Source of the DNA: a virus
Lineage: Duplodnaviria > Heunggongvirae > Uroviricota > Caudoviricetes
Virus record (IMG/VR): IMGVR_UViG_2537562192_000021
Coordinates: 1-27,655 of that record
Length of the DNA: 27,655 nt
Reading direction: 5' to 3' (one strand)
Made by a program: the position numbers. This document shows positions 15,201-21,200 of this stretch, one piece after another. How positions within the stretch are numbered: the stretch's first letter is position 1; each line of letters starts with the position of its first letter.

Positions 15201-18200
15201 GTCCCCCTCTTTAAATTCAGGTTCCATTGAATCCCCACGTATACGTAGCGCAAATGAACTTTCTGATAGCTCAGCCGTGGTGAGAATGTATTCGAAATCA
15301 CCTTCTTCACGAAGTAGCTCAGCGCTTGTGAAAGCCCCTGCTTGTACGTAGCTTAGAACAGGCACCCTTCGGGCTCCGTAGTTGAAATCTGTAACAACAT
15401 CGCCCCCAAGAAGTAGCCATTTAGGATCGCATTCAAGAGCTGACGCTAAAGCAAGAAGATTGCGTGGTTTAAGTGTTTTCCCATTCTCTATAGCTTCAAT
15501 CGACTGCTGGCTAATGCCCGCTCGTTTCGCAACTTCGACCTGAGTTAAGTTTAGTTCTGTTCTGCGTTTTTTAGCTCGGTTGGCAAGATTCATGTTGACT
15601 CCTTTTCTGTCATTGATGATTACAGATATTTCTGTATTTGACAAACAAGGTTGCCTGTGAGGTAATTACAAGTAAACCTGTAATGATGAGGGCTTACTCA
15701 ATGACCAGTTCCACCCTTGCTTCACGTATAAAGGAGCGCCGCAAAGCCTTAGGTATAACCCAAACTTCATTGGCTGAAAGTGTTGGCATGCGCCAGCAGT
15801 CTGTTCAATACCTTGAGTCCGGACGCGCCACCCGTACCGGTTTCATCCTTGAATTGGCAAAAGTTCTGAAATGCGATCCTGACTGGCTATTAAACGGCGA
15901 AAATTCAGAGCAGCAAAAGGTGTAACCCATGTCTGATAACAAACCATGGGGAGCTACGCCCGATGAGTGGTTCCACTTTGATCTGGTGTTGGGGATGACA
16001 GACAGGCTTTTACCTGTGGTGTCCAATCCCTGTGCAGAACTGTCGCCTAATAGCAAGCTGTCTCATAATTTCGGCAAAACACCCAGTCGCTACAATGGCC
16101 AACGTAAGGTTGTTGGTATCCCCGACTGGGCTAACTATGTTGTTACGGAAAACGATTTTGCCCGGTGGTCGAACGAACCCGATTACGGTATTTGCGTTCG
16201 TACTGGCGACGGGGTGGTGGCTCTGGACTGCGATATCAATGATGCCGGGATGCAGGAGATTGTACGCAATATTATCCTGTCATGCTTGGGGGAACTTCCG
16301 CCACGTCGCTGGCGGGCTGACAGTCATAAATGCCTGTACCTGATTGCTGTTGATGGCGACTACCGTAAACGTGGTCACCGCCTGGAAGGCGAAAACAAAC
16401 AAATAGAGCTGCTCGCTAAGGGCCAGCAGTTTGTGGCTTGTGGTACCCATCCGGCAGGCGAACGTATTCAGTGGGACAGCGGTTTGCCCGGCGAACCTCT
16501 GAAAATTACATCTGAACAGCTCGAAAGCCTGTGGCAGCGTCTGGCGGATAACTTACCCGTGAAAGACAGCTATATCGCAGGTGCAGGACGTCAGCGTGAC
16601 CTTTCCTGTGTTGATCCTTCCGCGACAGATGATGTCGCCGACTGGCTTGACGCGAACGGGTGGACTCTGTCAGTCAGCTCTGATGGTTCCCGCAATCTGA
16701 AACCGTTTCGGGATGAGTCAGAATACAGCAACGGTTGCAGCGAAACATCCATTAAGTATTTCCCAAAAGGGACGGGGGGATTTGAACAGGGACATTTTAA
16801 AAGCATGCACAACACCGATGCGGGGCTTACTGATGCCGACTGGCTGGATGCATACGGCTACCGCGTGGCGGACTTCGAAGATTTGACAGTGGCTGAAGAT
16901 GGCGATAAGCCTGAGTATCTTCCCTGGCCTAAGTTCAGTCGTGATAAGAATGACCGGATAGAAGGTACCGTTACCAATGTGCTGCTGGCGCTGCGGCGAC
17001 CGGATCTCTGCGGTGTACAAATCCGCCTTGATGAGTTCCGGGACGAGATAATACTGACCACTCCACGGGGGAAAAACCTGCGGTTGCGTGATGAGTTTTA
17101 TACCATGCTGCACTCTAGGCTCGAATGTCTGGGATTCAAGAAATTTGAAGAGGCAGCGATCAGGCGTGCGGTGCGCCTGGTCGCGTACGAAAACCGTTTT
17201 GATTCGCTTAAAGACTGGATTGCCAATCTTCCTGCATGGGATGGTGTTCCCCGTATAGATACTTTCTTCTGTCGGCACTGGGGTATCGAGGCCAACGCCT
17301 ACACCCACGCAGTCGGGCGCTACTGGTGGACTTTGCTCGCGGGTCGAGCTCTGGTTCCTGGCATTAAAGGGGACATGGCTGTGATCCTTGTCAGCCAACA
17401 GGGTAAGAACAAGTCCGAAGGTATCCGTGCAATGGCTCCAACCCCTGAGCATTACATGGAACTGGACTTCGGTAAGAAGGGAGAGGAGCGCATTCGTGAG
17501 ATGCGAGGGCATAACGTTATTGAGCTTGGTGAGATGCGCGGTATGGATAAACGGGGTATTGGTGATGTTCGTGTCACCATATCCACCCGTGCAGACCGCA
17601 ACCGCGGGTTGTTTCGGGAGCACTATGTCACTTTACCGAGGCGTTGCGGTTTTATTGGTACTTCTAACTCCGATACGCCATTGACAGATACCGAAGGTAA
17701 CCGCCGTTGGTTGCCGATGACGATACCGGATGAGACTGACGGCAAGTTTATCGCTCAGGGTATCGCTGACGAAAAAATACAGCTTTGGGCTGAAGCAGTC
17801 GCCGTTTTTAAACGTGATGGCATCGCATGGGAGAACGCTGAAACACTGGCTAAGTCTATTCTTGGGGATTATGAGGTCAAAGATGAGGTCTGGATGTCAT
17901 GCGTCGCTGAGTGGTTAGAGTTGCCACAGGATCTGTACGATATGGCTGCCGACGGCACGAAAAAGAACTGCGAACGCGTCCCCCTTACGTCAAAAGACGT
18001 ATTGGTCGAGGCGATTGGCTTCAAAGCCCCCCAGGTAAAACGCAGTGACGAAATGAAAATTGCAGCAATCATGAAGAAGCTTGGTTACAAAAATAAACAG
18101 TTGCAAAGTTTACCGGGTAAGCCTCGCAGCTGGGAAAAATGCAAATAACTACAAGTTTGTAGATTTTTGCAGGTTGTTACTCAACCTACTCAACCTCACA

Positions 18201-21200
18201 AGGGTAGGTTGAGTAAGAAAAATGGTATTAAAATCATGATATTACTCAACCACTCAACCTACTCAACTATTTTATATAAATATACGCGTGCGCGCGCACG
18301 CATGTATGTAAGAATTTTATTTTTCCAAAAGGTTGAGTAGGTTGAGTAAGAGTATGATTTTTATGTTTTTTAGGTTACTCAACCTTTTGCCCGTAAAAAA
18401 AGTTGAGTAAAGAAAACTTGCAGAAAATCACAAATAACCAAACGGAGTAAAAACATGAATACAACCTGTGCAAGATTACCAAGTGCAGATACGTTAGCGG
18501 AACAGGCAGCAAAAACGGCAAGTGGGTGGATGTCAGACGCCGTAATAGCGATAGATGAGCTTTTTGGAAAGGGCTATGCGAAGCAACACCCTGAATTAGT
18601 TGCTGCCTTTATGCAAACAGCGGGCTTAGATGAAGCTGCAATGCACTTACGGGGACTTGTGTTAGCTAACCAACGGATTGATGACACACTGGAAGTGCTT
18701 TCGGAGCATATTATGCTGCTTAACGAGCCCCAATAAACCCGATGCGGATAAACAGACGTAGTTCTCAGAAAATTTTTTCGTAGCAAAACGTAGAGGCCAG
18801 CGTTATGCGTAGAGATATGCAACTTGTTCTGGAGCGGTGGGGGCGATGGGCGGCGAGCGAGGAATACTGTTCAATGGTTGACTGGCCCTCAATGTCGGTT
18901 ACTTCCCGGGACGTAACCGATAGTGGCAAACCCGGTTGCTCTGACGAGGACGGAGCGGTGATTGATACCTGCATCGCGCATATGAGTATGGTTTGCCCGT
19001 ACGATGATTTGCTGATCCTGGGGTTACGTTTTATAGGCGGCCTCTCAACGCGTGCAATTGCTGAGGCGATAGACCGTAGTCATCTTAGCGTACGGACATC
19101 CCTGAAGGCGTCTGAAGCATTTCTGGAAGGAGCTCTGACTCTGCAGGGAGTAAGGTTGGATATGGATCCTGAAGTTGTACTACCTGAAAGGGTTGTGTGC
19201 GCACAAAAAAATATGTTATGGTTATAGCGTCTATAATTGTATGCTTACTGCTGAAAGGTTCTGATAACACCGGAACCTTTTTTCTTGTCTTCTGCTGGGA
19301 AAAATTAATAAAACAGGAAAGAAAAACATGACATCGCACTGGTTCAGTGTCAGCCAGTGGCAGTTACCAAACGAGGATGATTACAGAAAACTTCATGCGT
19401 TGTTAGCTCAGCCGGACAGAGCAATTGCCTTCTAAGCAATCGGTCACTGGTTCGAATCCAGTACAACGCGCCATATTTATTTACCAGGCTCGCTTTTGCG
19501 GGCCTTTTTTATATCTGCGCCGGGTCTGGTGCCGTATTACTTCAGCCAAAAGGAATACCTGTATATGAAGTGTATATTGTTAAAATGGGTACTGTGCCTG
19601 TTACTGGGCTTTTCTTCGGTATCCTATTCCCGGGAATTTACGATAGACTTTTCGACTCAACAAAGTTATGTCTCTTCGTTAAATAGTATACGGACAGAAA
19701 TATCGACTCCTCTTGAGCATATATCTCAGGGGACCACATCGGTGTCTGTTATTAACCACACCCCACCGGGCAGTTATTTTGCTGTGGATATACGAGGGCT
19801 TGATGTCTATCAGGCGCGTTTTGACCATCTTCGTCTGATTATTGAGCAAAATAATTTATATGTGGCCGGATTTGTTAATACGGCAACAAATACTTTCTAC
19901 AGATTTTCAGATTTTGCACATATATCAGTGCCCGGTGTGACAACTGTTTCCATGACAACGGACAGCAGTTATACCACTCTGCAACGTGTCGCAGCGCTGG
20001 AACGTTCCGGAATGCAAATCAGTCGTCACTCACTGGTTTCATCATATCTGGCGTTAATGGAGTTTAGTGGAAATGCCATGACCAGAGATGCATCCAGAGC
20101 AGTTCTGCGTTTTGTCACTGTCACAGCAGAAGCCTTACGGTTCAGGCAAATACAGAGAGAATTTCGTCTGGCACTGTCTGAAACTGCTCCTGTTTATACG
20201 ATGACACCGGAAGAAGTGGACCTCACACTGAACTGGGGGAGAATCAGCAATGTGCTTCCGGAGTTTCGGGGAGAGGGTGGTGTCAGAGTGGGGCGAATAT
20301 CCTTTAATAATATATCAGCGATACTGGGCACAGTGGCGGTTATACTGAATTGCCATCATCAGGGGGCACGTTCCGTTCGCTCCGTGAATGAAGAGATACA
20401 ACCAGAATGTCAGATAACTGGCGACAGGCCAGTTATAAGGCTAAACAATACTTTATGGGAAAGTAATACCGCAGCTGCTTTTCTGAATCGCAGGGCTCAC
20501 TCTTTAAATACATCCGGAGAATAACGGGAGTTAAATATGAAGAAGATATTTGTAGCGGCTTTATTTGCTTTTGTTTCTGTTAATGCAATGGCAGCTGATT
20601 GTGCAAAAGGTAAAATTGAGTTCTCTAAGTATAATGAGAATGATACATTCACAGTAAAAGTGGCCGGGAAAGAGTACTGGACTAACCGCTGGAATCTGCA
20701 ACCGCTACTGCAAAGCGCACAGTTAACAGGAATGACGGTAACAATCAAATCAAATACCTGTGCGTCAGGTTCAGGATTTGCTGAAGTGCAGTTTAATTAA
20801 TATCAGAAGCATTGCTGGTTTCGTAGTGTGCAGCAATGTAGTTACAGTGTAATCAATGTCACAATTCAGTCAGTTGACGGTTGCCTGTCTGGCTGAGCAT
20901 TTGTTAAAAAAATCCTGCATGATGAATCCCCCTGTGCGGAGGGGCATAATGACAGATGTTTGGTTGCGTATTGTATAGGCAAGTTGCGGATTCTGTCTGG
21001 TCATTGCAGAATTCACCGGGAGGCACCCGGCATCATGCTGTATACAGAGATTAGGCATATATCCAGGCTCCTCATCGCAGGAGCCTTTTTACATGCAAAA
21101 AAAGCCCGCGCCGGGAGACGCGGGCGGCAAGGAATAAACAACAAAACGTGAAGTAATATTTCAGCTGGCGAATAATACCCGACAGTAATCACTCTGCGCA

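What the first reader, a model, noticed from the sequence alone, without database searches (positions are those of the whole stretch)
18170..18412. Putative replication origin: about ten 9-bp iterons around an AT-rich core and an alternating (CG)n palindrome
Directly after the primase-helicase gene the sequence has repeated TACTCAACC / GGTTGAGTA units in both orientations separated by AT-rich stretches, plus the Z-DNA-prone ACGCGTGCGCGCGCACGCAT. Iterons next to an initiator gene are the standard signature of a phage or plasmid origin. This iteron consensus is not one I recognise.
Basis: partly seen in the sequence, partly recalled or inferred. Interest (0 to 1): 0.55.

Follow-up and report, generated by a model that had tools for sequence, protein, structure and literature searches.

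The report
Replication origin of a Shiga-toxin phage
The repeats are real and are almost certainly the replication origin of a Shiga-toxin-2a prophage, built like the origins of staphylococcal pathogenicity islands; this is a useful but not surprising addition to a known kind of origin.

Summary
Ten copies of TACTCAACC (7 exact, 3 with one mismatch, both orientations) lie at 18178-18409, starting 30 nt after the stop codon of a 739-aa PrimPol-VapE (SF3 helicase) gene. They are arranged as a dyad around ~18295, the centre of a 31-nt perfectly alternating purine-pyrimidine tract.

The window is an E. coli Stx2a prophage whose gene order matches the published non-lambdoid 'Eru10' type. No origin is described for it in the papers I read.

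The same array architecture follows the homologous gene in 99 of 106 distinct relatives, including APSE-1 and Yersinia phage YeP5, but with different 9-mers. Iteron sequence tracks a few residues in the predicted C-terminal wing of the helicase. It does not track cI, cro or the downstream ORF.

The helicase half matches SaPI1 Rep over its full length (Foldseek E 3.6e-25), and SaPI1 Rep's origin has the same design.

Verdict: this is a SaPI/PICI-type origin with a self-loading helicase, carried by a complete toxin-converting phage. It is a new member of a known kind. Binding, melting and origin firing are inferred, not shown. The palindrome is not conserved; the purine-pyrimidine alternation is.

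The parts
15929..18148 (+). Initiator gene: 739-aa PrimPol, SF3 (VapE) helicase and C-terminal winged-helix-like domain.
   Evidence: Pfam: Prim-Pol at aa 75-185 and VapE at aa 436-638. PDB sequence hit to 7pds_A, E 4.8e-26. AF2 model of aa 330-739 has pLDDT 92.3. Foldseek top hit is 7pds, SaPI1 PriRep1/Rep1, E 3.6e-25, TM 0.70.
17990..18145 (+). Predicted C-terminal winged-helix domain (aa ~688-739). Recognition helix aa ~705-717. Wing: YKNKQ (720-724), loop, RSWEK (733-737). Proposed iteron reader.
   Evidence: DSSP of the AF2 models shows H-H-H-strand-strand. The wing strand co-varies with iteron sequence in relatives. Foldseek on the isolated domain was not significant (best E 0.07), although the hit list is dominated by winged-helix proteins.
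18178..18195 (+). Iterons 1-2: direct, contiguous, TACTCAACC x2.
18207..18215 (-). Iteron 3: inverted, reads GGTTGAGTA on the + strand.
18216..18242 (.). Left AT-rich spacer (27 bp).
   Evidence: Among the least stable 30-mers (18215-18244); sequence.
18243..18268 (+). Iterons 4-6: inner left set pointing toward the core (TACTCAACC, CACTCAACC, TACTCAACT).
18269..18330 (.). Central core: AT-rich, then the 31-nt alternating purine-pyrimidine tract (18280-18310, holding the near-palindrome 18284-18303), then AT-rich. The dyad axis lies at ~18295. Proposed melting and/or priming zone.
   Evidence: A tract of 26-42 nt sits at the same position in all distinct close VapE-type relatives (L008, L011-L015), with a different sequence in each.
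18331..18348 (-). Iterons 7-8: inner right set pointing toward the core.
18349..18375 (.). Right AT-rich spacer (27 bp).
18376..18384 (+). Iteron 9.
18401..18409 (-). Iteron 10: AGTTGAGTA on the + strand, 1 mismatch. It is an exact GGTTGAGTA in L001 and L009.
18411..18438 (+). Conserved flank motif AACTTGCAGAAAATCACAAATAAC at the right boundary of the origin. A related inverted copy lies at 18149-18172. Role unknown: a module boundary or a second binding site.
   Evidence: (I21, D6)
6941..9004 (-). Phage family-A DNA polymerase. Context: the likely elongation enzyme for this origin.
   Evidence: RefSeq annotation of the near-identical prophage; 687-aa ORF.
10890..12755 (-). DUF2815 and DUF2800 genes of the same replication module (context).

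Best explanation
The 18178-18409 array is the vegetative replication origin of this Stx2a prophage. It is of the SaPI/PICI 'Rep-ori' type.

Proposed mechanism:
1. After induction, pR transcription makes the PrimPol-VapE protein.
2. Its C-terminal winged-helix domain reads the 9-bp iterons (TACTCAACC).
3. The two inward-facing iteron sets and the outer inverted pairs nucleate two oppositely oriented SF3 hexamers on either side of the AT-rich/alternating-tract core (dyad axis ~18295).
4. The core melts without DnaA.
5. The protein's own PrimPol domain lays primers.
6. The phage family-A polymerase, with the DUF2815/DUF2800 partners, extends them bidirectionally.

Shown computationally:
- the repeat cluster and its position;
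- conservation of the architecture with changing iterons;
- covariation of iteron with the wing;
- homology to SaPI1 Rep;
- a single cluster per prophage.

Inferred: binding, double-hexamer loading, the melting site, priming and directionality.
For: (1) Enrichment and layout.

(2) The same layout sits immediately 3' of the homologous gene, with different 9-mers:
- TACTTAACC in Symbiopectobacterium (L008);
- TATCCAACC, TACCTAACC and TAGCTAACC in IMG/VR prophages;
- GTAACAACC in APSE-1;
- AGACAACC in Yersinia phage YeP5;
- GCAACCACC in Serratia, GTTCCTACC in a metagenomic contig (L019) and CTACACC in Paraburkholderia.
Across 106 distinct regions, 99 have at least 8 copies, against 3 of 106 coding controls.

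(3) Sibling E. coli prophages carry an identical PrimPol N-half (aa 1-329) but a DUF5906-type helicase half. They have the same architecture with AGGTGACGG, AGGTAACAG or AGGTGGCAG. Their proteins differ almost only in the last ~55 aa.

(4) Wing-to-iteron correspondence:
- GKKCKVW goes with CTGGAACCACC;
- GKMTRIF with CTGTACCAACC;
- GKQQRVF with CTAGACAACC;
- GKLMKVW with CTGTTACCACC;
- FVYRIW with AGGTGACGG;
- MGYRFW with AGGTAACAG;
- MTVRMW with AGGTGGCAG.
The identical pre-wing segment KRVQRRVD occurs with four different iterons.

(5) Other candidate binders are excluded. The same cI plus cro accessions occur with TACTCAACC (L001) and AGGTGGCAG (L005). The same downstream ORF occurs with AGGTGGCAG (L005) and AGGTGACGG (L006). 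The window's iteron core occurs in L012 with a different downstream ORF.

(6) The helicase half aligns over its full length with SaPI1 Rep1 (7pds). SaPI origins are 6-12 iterons immediately downstream of rep, flanking an AT-rich centre and read by a C-terminal WHD (PMC9371898). E. coli PICI pri-rep-ori modules of this layout were tested by plasmid-maintenance assay in that paper (PMC6092414).

(7) There is no DnaA box or GATC in 18100-18470, and no second iteron cluster in the ~46-kb prophage.
Against: - There is no experimental evidence for this element: no binding, marker-frequency or plasmid-maintenance data.
- The winged-helix assignment of the isolated C-terminal domain was not significant by Foldseek (best E 0.07). 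It rests on topology, the full-length match to 7pds and covariation.
- The iterons are 9 bp rather than the 5-6 nt described for SaPIs, and there are extra outer units.
- Covariation counts are not phylogenetically independent events.
- In phage P4 (from memory) one of the two alpha-binding iteron clusters, crr, is an auxiliary site rather than the start site. Binding sites alone therefore do not prove that initiation occurs here.
- Two relatives (L040, L073) lacked an array in the scanned 380 nt.
Confidence: 0.85

Rival explanations
1. The array is a regulatory binding-site cluster, not a start site. The primase-helicase, or another protein, bound here would act as a roadblock or timer on the pR transcript that must cross this region to reach orf93, Q and hence stx2. 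Alternatively it would autoregulate or control copy number by handcuffing.
For: The array lies between the early replication gene and Q (18805-19227), on the only evident path of rightward transcription. Initiator-iteron systems commonly also regulate (general plasmid knowledge, e.g. the review PMC4980987 listed). This role is compatible with an origin role.
Against: No promoter-like site overlaps the array. The design, with two opposed sets around an AT-rich core, matches the layout described for SaPI/PICI origins. That design is conserved in loci where the downstream gene is a terminase or an unrelated ORF rather than Q. Ten sites plus a low-stability core is more than a roadblock needs.
Confidence: 0.07
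2. The array is an auxiliary cis element like P4 crr. It binds the initiator and enhances replication, but initiation occurs at another site.
For: From memory, P4 alpha binds the same octamer at ori and at a separate crr. I did not check the positions of those sites here.
Against: Only one TACTCAACC cluster exists in the whole ~46-kb prophage, from int to the tail fibre genes. There is therefore no second cognate site to act as the true origin.
Confidence: 0.04
3. The functional element is the GC-rich palindrome acting as a transcription terminator or cruciform, and the 9-mers are incidental repeats.
For: A terminator-like hairpin was called on the minus strand at 18303-18284.
Against: The hairpin energy is no better than dinucleotide shuffles (z = 0.23). 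The hairpin is weak or absent in relatives L012, L014 and L015, which keep a 26-42 nt alternating tract. No T-run directly follows the stem on the + strand. The 9-mers are far beyond chance and co-vary with the protein.
Confidence: 0.02
4. The iterons are read by a different protein: Cro, cI, orf93 or a left-operon DNA-binding protein.
For: Several small DNA-binding proteins are encoded nearby (Arc, ANR, Rha, Ant).
Against: The cI, cro and downstream-ORF alleles are uncoupled from iteron type. The last ~55 aa of the primase-helicase are tightly coupled to it. Left-operon proteins were not individually tested.
Confidence: 0.02

Closest known systems
SaPI1 Rep1 / SaPI origins (staphylococcal pathogenicity islands; PDB 7pds; PMC9371898)
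   Same: The initiator is a self-loading SF3 helicase of the VapE family with a C-terminal DNA-reading domain. The helicase half here aligns over its full length with 7pds. In both, the origin lies immediately 3' of the initiator gene and has 6-12 iterons in two opposed sets around an AT-rich centre. SaPI5 PriRep5 likewise fuses a primase to the helicase.
   Different: Here the host element is a complete ~46-kb temperate phage of E. coli. Iterons are 9 bp (7-8 bp conserved core) rather than 5-6 nt. There are extra outer inverted pairs and two 27-bp AT spacers. The centre carries a 31-nt alternating purine-pyrimidine tract. Sequence identity to Rep1 is only ~23%.
E. coli PICI pri-rep-ori (EcCICFT073; PMC6092414)
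   Same: Same host species. Two iteron sets flank an AT-rich region directly after the initiator gene. The paper tested pri-rep-ori function by plasmid-maintenance assay.
   Different: PICIs are ~10-15-kb helper-dependent satellites. This element has its own terminase, portal, capsid, tail and lysis genes. [quoted passage not shown] I did not compare the PICI Rep or iteron sequences directly.
Phage P4 alpha protein with ori and crr
   Same: One polypeptide combines primase, SF3 helicase and a C-terminal winged-helix domain that binds short iterons (from memory, not tested here).
   Different: P4 needs two separated iteron regions; here there is a single cluster. As I recall, P4's primase is not an AEP/PrimPol domain. 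No sequence match to P4 was seen in the PDB search.
Lambda O/P and ori-lambda, and the O-type origins of classical Stx phages
   Same: Same logic: iterons plus an AT-rich region plus a palindrome-like element. The initiator's specificity domain co-evolves with its iterons. The origin lies in the pR operon upstream of Q and stx.
   Different: There are no O or P homologues. The iterons lie outside the gene rather than inside it. The helicase is phage-encoded and self-loading rather than host DnaB delivered by P. This prophage's gene order fits the 'Eru10' non-lambdoid type (PMC8951638).
Archaeal plasmid pRN1 ORF904, and the NrS-1 / poxvirus D5 / ASFV PrimPol-helicases
   Same: All have the PrimPol plus SF3 helicase architecture. 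The pRN1 minimal replicon needs 166 bp of sequence downstream of the replication operon orf56/orf904 (abstract of PMC4234260). NrS-1, D5/E5 and ASFV PrimPol are the next structural matches.
   Different: The relationship is remote (10-14% identity). I did not check whether the pRN1 downstream region has a comparable iteron array.
SV40/polyomavirus core origin with large T antigen
   Same: An SF3 helicase-initiator reads short repeats arranged as inverted sets and assembles two opposed hexamers next to an AT tract and a palindrome (general knowledge; PMC9894130 listed).
   Different: This is an analogy only. The DNA-binding domain fold and the repeat sequence differ, and here the easily melted element lies between the repeat sets rather than outside them.

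Membership tests
SaPI/PICI-type Rep-ori replication module | The initiator contains an SF3 (or SF6) helicase ATPase homologous to SaPI Rep. | tested here: met
   Pfam VapE, E 2.4e-44. phmmer to 7pds_A, E 4.8e-26. Foldseek to 7pds, E 3.6e-25, TM 0.70 over 444 columns. The columns invariant across 62 homologues (e.g. Q162, G163, K166, R263, R264 of the fragment) are by definition retained in the window protein.
SaPI/PICI-type Rep-ori replication module | A C-terminal winged-helix domain reads the iterons. | tested here: met
   AF2 topology is helix-helix-helix-hairpin at aa ~688-739, with pLDDT ~87-90 in that part. The full-length alignment to Rep1 extends to the C-terminal end. Hairpin residues co-vary with iteron sequence in two helicase families. 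Caveat: Foldseek on the isolated domain was not significant (best E 0.07), though its hit list is dominated by winged-helix proteins. Binding itself was not tested.
SaPI/PICI-type Rep-ori replication module | The origin lies immediately 3' of the initiator ORF. | tested here: met
   The first iteron starts 30 nt after the stop codon. The same holds in 99 of 106 relatives.
SaPI/PICI-type Rep-ori replication module | There are 6-12 iterons, with at least two on each side of an AT-rich centre pointing in opposite directions. | tested here: met
   Ten iterons. The inner sets are +++ (18243-18268) and -- (18331-18348), around an AT-rich/alternating-tract core.
SaPI/PICI-type Rep-ori replication module | The iterons are penta- or hexanucleotides. 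| tested here: not met
   The units are 9 bp at 8-9 bp spacing. I treat this as descriptive rather than defining, but it is a difference.
SaPI/PICI-type Rep-ori replication module | Rep binds and melts its cognate origin without ATP, and rep plus ori sustain replication. | not testable with these tools
   Needs EMSA, KMnO4 footprinting and plasmid-maintenance assays.
PICI / SaPI element (satellite) | A small (~10-15 kb) helper-dependent island lacking a full set of virion and lysis genes. | tested here: not met
   The prophage is ~46 kb, running from int (470-1873) to the tail fibre genes. It has terminase, portal, capsid, tail and lysis genes. The origin works like a PICI origin, but the element is not a PICI.
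Lambda-type O/P origin | Phage_rep_O initiator with iterons inside the O gene, and a P-type DnaB loader. | tested here: not met
   No O or P domains were found among the rightward-operon ORFs I scanned, and none is annotated across the prophage. The iterons are intergenic.
P4 alpha ori/crr system | Two separated iteron regions (ori and crr) are both required in cis. | tested here: not met
   There is a single cluster in the whole prophage.
DnaA-dependent iteron plasmid origin (Rep_3/RepA type) | DnaA boxes and Dam sites next to the iterons, with a Rep_3-family initiator. | tested here: not met
   No DnaA box (at most 1 mismatch) and no GATC in 18100-18470. The initiator is a PrimPol-SF3 helicase.
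Eru10-type non-lambdoid Stx phage (PMC8951638) | Only a PF09250 PrimPol protein and Q lie between cI and stx. | tested here: met
   Order in the window: cI-like 14964-15644 (-), cro-like 15638-15925, PrimPol-VapE 15929-18148, orf93, Q 18805-19227, tRNA-Arg, stx2A, stx2B. The reference contig LOGT01000177.1 was not available for direct comparison.

The most novel reading that the evidence does not exclude
The long, perfectly alternating purine-pyrimidine tract at the dyad centre is a selected origin element in its own right. It is 31 nt here and 26-42 nt in every close relative. Its sequence and palindromy are not conserved and its CG-unit number is polymorphic. In this subfamily it would replace the (TA)n core of sister origins. 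It could act as a supercoil-driven structural switch (a B-Z or similar transition) or as the template that the PrimPol domain starts on. Either role would couple origin firing, and hence stx2 gene dosage, to induction-driven transcription through the region. A second part of this reading is that the few wing residues form a readable code, which would allow design of orthogonal initiator-origin pairs.
Probability: 0.15. Interest if true: 0.6.

Novelty: new member of a known kind. Interest (0 to 1): 0.42.

Why it matters
Stx production depends on prophage replication, and the non-lambdoid 'Eru' Stx phages have no mapped origins in the papers I read (PMC8044961, PMC8951638).

- Locating the origin and its cognate reader gives a concrete target for testing how replication drives toxin dosage in this phage type. 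Candidate experiments are an origin deletion, iteron decoys and wing mutants.
- The origin layout previously described as exclusive to PICIs (PMC6092414) also serves complete temperate phages. These include two unrelated toxin carriers, this Stx2a prophage and APSE-1.
- The helicase, winged-helix domain and origin move together as one cassette behind a constant PrimPol half.
- The wing-iteron table offers a natural specificity series for a self-loading SF3 helicase.

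Tried and rejected
- blastn of the origin against the phage collection found nothing. Megablast of the module there found only the shared PrimPol half.
- My first DNA alignment (A2) included a dummy row and aligned the VapE-type origin poorly to the DUF5906-type origins. I dropped it and mapped the iterons by script instead.
- GC skew around the region follows transcription direction and says nothing about an origin.
- The promoter scan found no site in the array. The only terminator-like call is the palindrome on the minus strand. Hairpin energies are no better than shuffles, so I rejected the palindrome, terminator and cruciform readings as the conserved feature.
- Rfam gave only sub-threshold plant miRNA-precursor hits, an artefact of the long inverted repeat.
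- IHF-like matches with 1 mismatch are too loose to interpret.
- My 'alternating run lies in the central gap' statistic used a faulty gap definition: it mis-scored the window itself. I do not use it. Position is stated from the sequences directly.
- Foldseek on the isolated C-terminal domain was not significant.
- Literature searches for VapE plus iterons, or for an APSE origin with iterons, found nothing.
- L040 and L073 lacked arrays in the scanned stretch. I did not follow them up.

Full report
**What is there**

The region 18149-18454 is a 306-bp intergenic stretch with GC 0.34, against about 0.50 in the flanks. TACTCAACC with at most one mismatch occurs 14 times in the window, and ten of those hits lie in 18178-18409. 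Seven are exact and three have one mismatch; six are on the + strand and four on the - strand. Shuffles of the whole window give a mean of 4.6 hits and never reach 14. In the near-identical prophage L001 there are 8 exact copies against 0.20 expected in 35.7 kb.

The units are contiguous at 8-9 bp spacing inside each set. Reading left to right the layout is:
- two direct units;
- one inverted unit;
- a 27-bp AT spacer;
- three direct units;
- the core;
- two inverted units;
- a 27-bp AT spacer;
- one direct unit;
- one inverted unit.

Pairs 4/8, 5/7, 3/9 and 2/10 mirror about 18295-18298. The core holds ACGCGTGCGCGCGCACGCAT (18284-18303) inside a 31-nt run of perfect purine-pyrimidine alternation (18280-18310, centre 18295). 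No shuffle of 2000 reached that run length. The least stable 30-mers of the neighbourhood are the AT stretches between the iteron groups.

**Context**

The window is an E. coli Stx2a prophage. It is 99.5% identical over the module to strain 89-3156, where the prophage is inserted next to yfhL.

The rightward operon, in order:
- cro-like HTH gene, 15638-15925;
- a 739-aa Prim-Pol (PF09250) plus VapE (PF05272) protein, 15929-18148;
- the array;
- orf93;
- Q, 18805-19227;
- tRNA-Arg(tct);
- stx2A and stx2B;
- nanS-p.

The leftward operon encodes a family-A DNA polymerase, DUF2815, DUF2800, VRR-NUC and SNF2 proteins. This matches the published 'Eru10' non-lambdoid Stx phage type, in which only a PrimPol protein and Q lie between cI and stx (PMC8951638). 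Neither Eru paper mentions an origin or iterons.

The origin sequence occurs in only 2 of 5,426 complete E. coli genomes and is unannotated in both.

**Comparative evidence: the architecture is conserved while the iterons change**

Proteins 76-83% identical in the helicase half are followed by the same layout at the same distances from the stop codon, but with different 9-mers:
- TACTTAACC in Symbiopectobacterium (L008);
- TATCCAACC in L011 and L013;
- (A/T)ACTCAACC in L012;
- TACCYAACC in L014;
- TAGCTAACC in L015.

At about 39% identity the design persists:
- APSE-1, GTAACAACC;
- Yersinia phage YeP5, AGACAACC;
- a Serratia prophage, GCAACCACC;
- a metagenomic contig (L019), GTTCCTACC;
- a Paraburkholderia island, CTACACC.

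I scanned 106 distinct regions downstream of VapE-type or DUF5906-type genes. The best 7-mer, allowing one mismatch on either strand, occurs a median of 10 times in the 380 nt that start 40 nt before the stop. The adjacent coding control gives a median of 5 and a maximum of 8. At least 8 copies occur in 99 of 106 origin regions against 3 of 106 controls.

**Cassette exchange and covariation**

Among complete E. coli genomes, 151 carry a prophage sharing this module's left end, the PrimPol N-half (aa 1-329, about 97-100% identical in the six proteins I aligned). In every one I fetched except L001, the C-terminal half belongs to another SF3 family, DUF5906, related to the NrS-1 helicase. These prophages have the same origin layout with three further iterons: AGGTGACGG, AGGTAACAG or AGGTGGCAG.

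The DUF5906 proteins differ almost only in their last ~55 residues (alignment A1). With 26 more loci the correspondence is:

| Wing residues | Iteron |
|---|---|
| FVYRIW | AGGTGACGG |
| M/LTVRMW, DTLRFW | AGGTGGCAG |
| MGYRFW, IGYRFW, IAYRFW | AGGTAACAG |
| F/CTNRFW, STQRFW | AGGTGTCAG |
| IAQRFW | AGGTGACAG |

In an enterobacterial VapE subfamily, 23 distinct C-termini fall into nine wing types and eight iterons, almost one to one:

| Wing | Iteron |
|---|---|
| GKKC/SKVW | CTGGAACCACC |
| GKMTRIF | CTGTACCAACC |
| GKQQRV/IF | CTAGACAACC |
| GKLMKVW | CTGTTACCACC |
| GKKQRIW | CTGTCCCCACC |
| GKKMRIF | CTGTCCCAACC |
| GKVLKVW, GKVQRVW | CTGTAACCACC (one GKVQRVW locus has CTGTTACCACC) |
| GKGCKVW | TGCAACCACC |

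The identical preceding segment KRVQRRVD occurs with four different iterons. This places the determinant in the second wing strand.

Other candidate binders do not track the iteron:
- The same cI and cro accessions occur with TACTCAACC (L001) and AGGTGGCAG (L005).
- The same downstream ORF occurs with AGGTGGCAG (L005) and AGGTGACGG (L006).
- The window's iteron core occurs in L012 with an unrelated downstream ORF.

These counts are not phylogenetically independent. The pattern is nevertheless what an initiator-iteron pair predicts: near-identical proteins that differ in a handful of hairpin residues wherever the iteron differs.

**The protein**

An AF2 model of aa 330-739 is confident (pLDDT 92.3). 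It ends in helix-helix-helix followed by a beta hairpin: YKNKQ at aa 720-724 and RSWEK at aa 733-737. Its best PDB match is SaPI1 PriRep1/Rep1 (7pds), with E 3.6e-25 and TM 0.70 over 444 columns. The next matches are NrS-1, ASFV PrimPol and poxvirus D5/E5. The sequence search gives the same top hit.

The isolated C-terminal domain gave no significant Foldseek hit (best E 0.07), although MarR, Fur, ScpB and OmpR-type winged helices dominate the hit list.

**Comparison with known systems**

SaPI Reps are self-loading helicase-initiators. Their C-terminal WHD reads 6-12 short iterons placed immediately downstream of rep, half on each side of an AT-rich centre and pointing in opposite directions (PMC9371898). 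E. coli PICIs have the same layout, and the PICI paper tested EcCICFT073 pri-rep-ori function by plasmid-maintenance assay. [quoted passage not shown]

The element here meets the layout features but is not a PICI. It is a ~46-kb prophage with its own terminase, portal, capsid, tail and lysis genes.

It differs from the SaPI description in three ways: 9-bp units, extra outer inverted pairs with two AT spacers, and the alternating tract at the centre.

It is not one of the other origin types considered:
- Not a lambda-type origin. There is no O or P and the iterons are intergenic.
- Not P4-like in needing two sites. There is a single cluster.
- Not DnaA-dependent by sequence. There is no DnaA box or GATC.

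**The centre of the origin**

In all distinct close VapE-type relatives (L008, L011-L015) the core carries a 26-42 nt perfectly alternating purine-pyrimidine run, with 0 of 2000 shuffles reaching the observed length in each. The sequence differs between relatives. For example, L012 has TACATATACGCACGCACGCACGCATACATACACGCATATGCA, which is not a palindrome.

Hairpin energies are no better than dinucleotide shuffles, and are weak in L012, L014 and L015. The conserved property is therefore the alternation, not the palindrome.

More distant origins have a (TA)5-9 run in the core, for example AACCCCATATATATATATAAGTCG, which is conserved across iteron types. Alternating runs of at least 12 nt occur in 70 of 106 origin regions against 1 of 106 controls. 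The CG-unit number is polymorphic between near-identical prophages: L009 is 2 bp shorter.

Whether the tract is the melting site, a primer template or a supercoil-sensitive switch is open.

**Mechanism proposed**

Shown:
- the sites and their symmetry;
- the single cluster;
- the covariation with the wing;
- the homology to SaPI1 Rep.

Inferred:
- the WHD binds the iterons;
- two opposed hexamers assemble on the inner sets;
- the core melts without host DnaA;
- the PrimPol domain primes;
- the phage polymerase extends bidirectionally.

The origin lies on the pR transcript path and about 1.1 kb upstream of stx2. Transcription through it and local copy-number gain may therefore both bear on toxin output. 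This last point is inference.

**Verdict**

This is a new member of the SaPI/PICI-type origin class, in a medically relevant phage type that has no mapped origin in the papers I read. Its most useful by-product is the wing-iteron specificity series. Interest is moderate.

Noticed in passing
L016 (APSE-1, NC_000935.1) 760-5400; origin at L016 ~3290-3590: The aphid-symbiont toxin phage APSE-1 has the same order as this Stx phage: repressor (leftward), cro-like gene, PrimPol-VapE (P3), iteron origin (GTAACAACC), Q-like gene, further ORFs P7-P8, then P9 (putative cell wall hydrolase). I recall the APSE toxin cassette as lying after Q, but did not check this. Its annotated ORF 'P4' (L016 3419-3640) lies inside the iteron array and is probably not a gene.
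   Followed up: partly
window ~16915 (aa ~329, linker EDGDKPE) to ~18760: The helicase, winged-helix domain and origin (plus orf93 here) behave as one exchangeable cassette behind a near-identical PrimPol N-half. Two different Pfam helicase families (VapE and DUF5906) occupy this slot in sibling E. coli prophages. The VapE cassette's nearest relative (83%) is in Symbiopectobacterium.
   Followed up: partly
window 18411-18438 and 18149-18172; also L005 6866-6890, L012, L018 3846-3872: A conserved flank motif (AACTTGCAGAAAATCACAAATAAC) bounds the origin in loci with different iterons. In some loci it is a palindrome of the form ACTTGCA..TGCAAGT. It is not a sigma-70 promoter match. It could be a module boundary or a second protein-binding site.
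   Followed up: no
window 18284-18303 and 18401; L009 and L001: There is length polymorphism of one CG unit in the alternating tract (L009 is 2 bp shorter). There is also an A/G difference in the outermost iteron: AGTTGAGTA here, GGTTGAGTA in L001, L009 and L010.
   Followed up: partly
window 6941-9004 (-): The family-A DNA polymerase ORF is intact here (687 aa). It is annotated as frameshifted in the 99.5%-identical prophage of strain 89-3156.
   Followed up: no
window 13827-14964: From coordinate offsets, the window appears to carry about 430 bp more than strain 89-3156 between the leftward replication genes and cI. An extra 174-aa ORF (14020-14544) lies in this stretch; ORFs at the same position are annotated in L005, L006 and L007. 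I did not align the region directly.
   Followed up: no
L082, L096, L107: about 100 nt downstream of their iteron arrays: A conserved CGCGCGTGCGCGCGT followed by TTTT sits just upstream of the next gene in the enterobacterial VapE subfamily. It looks like a terminator. It resembles the window's central tract in sequence but lies outside the array.
   Followed up: no
window 18167-18340 (+): A 57-aa TTG-start ORF overlaps the iteron array. It is unannotated in RefSeq and is almost certainly spurious.
   Followed up: no
window 18185-18411: Rfam gives only sub-threshold matches to plant microRNA precursor families (about 20-25 bits against gathering scores of 100-245). This is an artefact of the long inverted repeat.
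   Followed up: yes
window 19397-20800: tRNA-Arg(tct) lies directly upstream of stx2A/stx2B. A remnant DNA methyltransferase pseudogene is annotated at the equivalent position in the reference, between Q and the tRNA and overlapping the tRNA's first bases.
   Followed up: no
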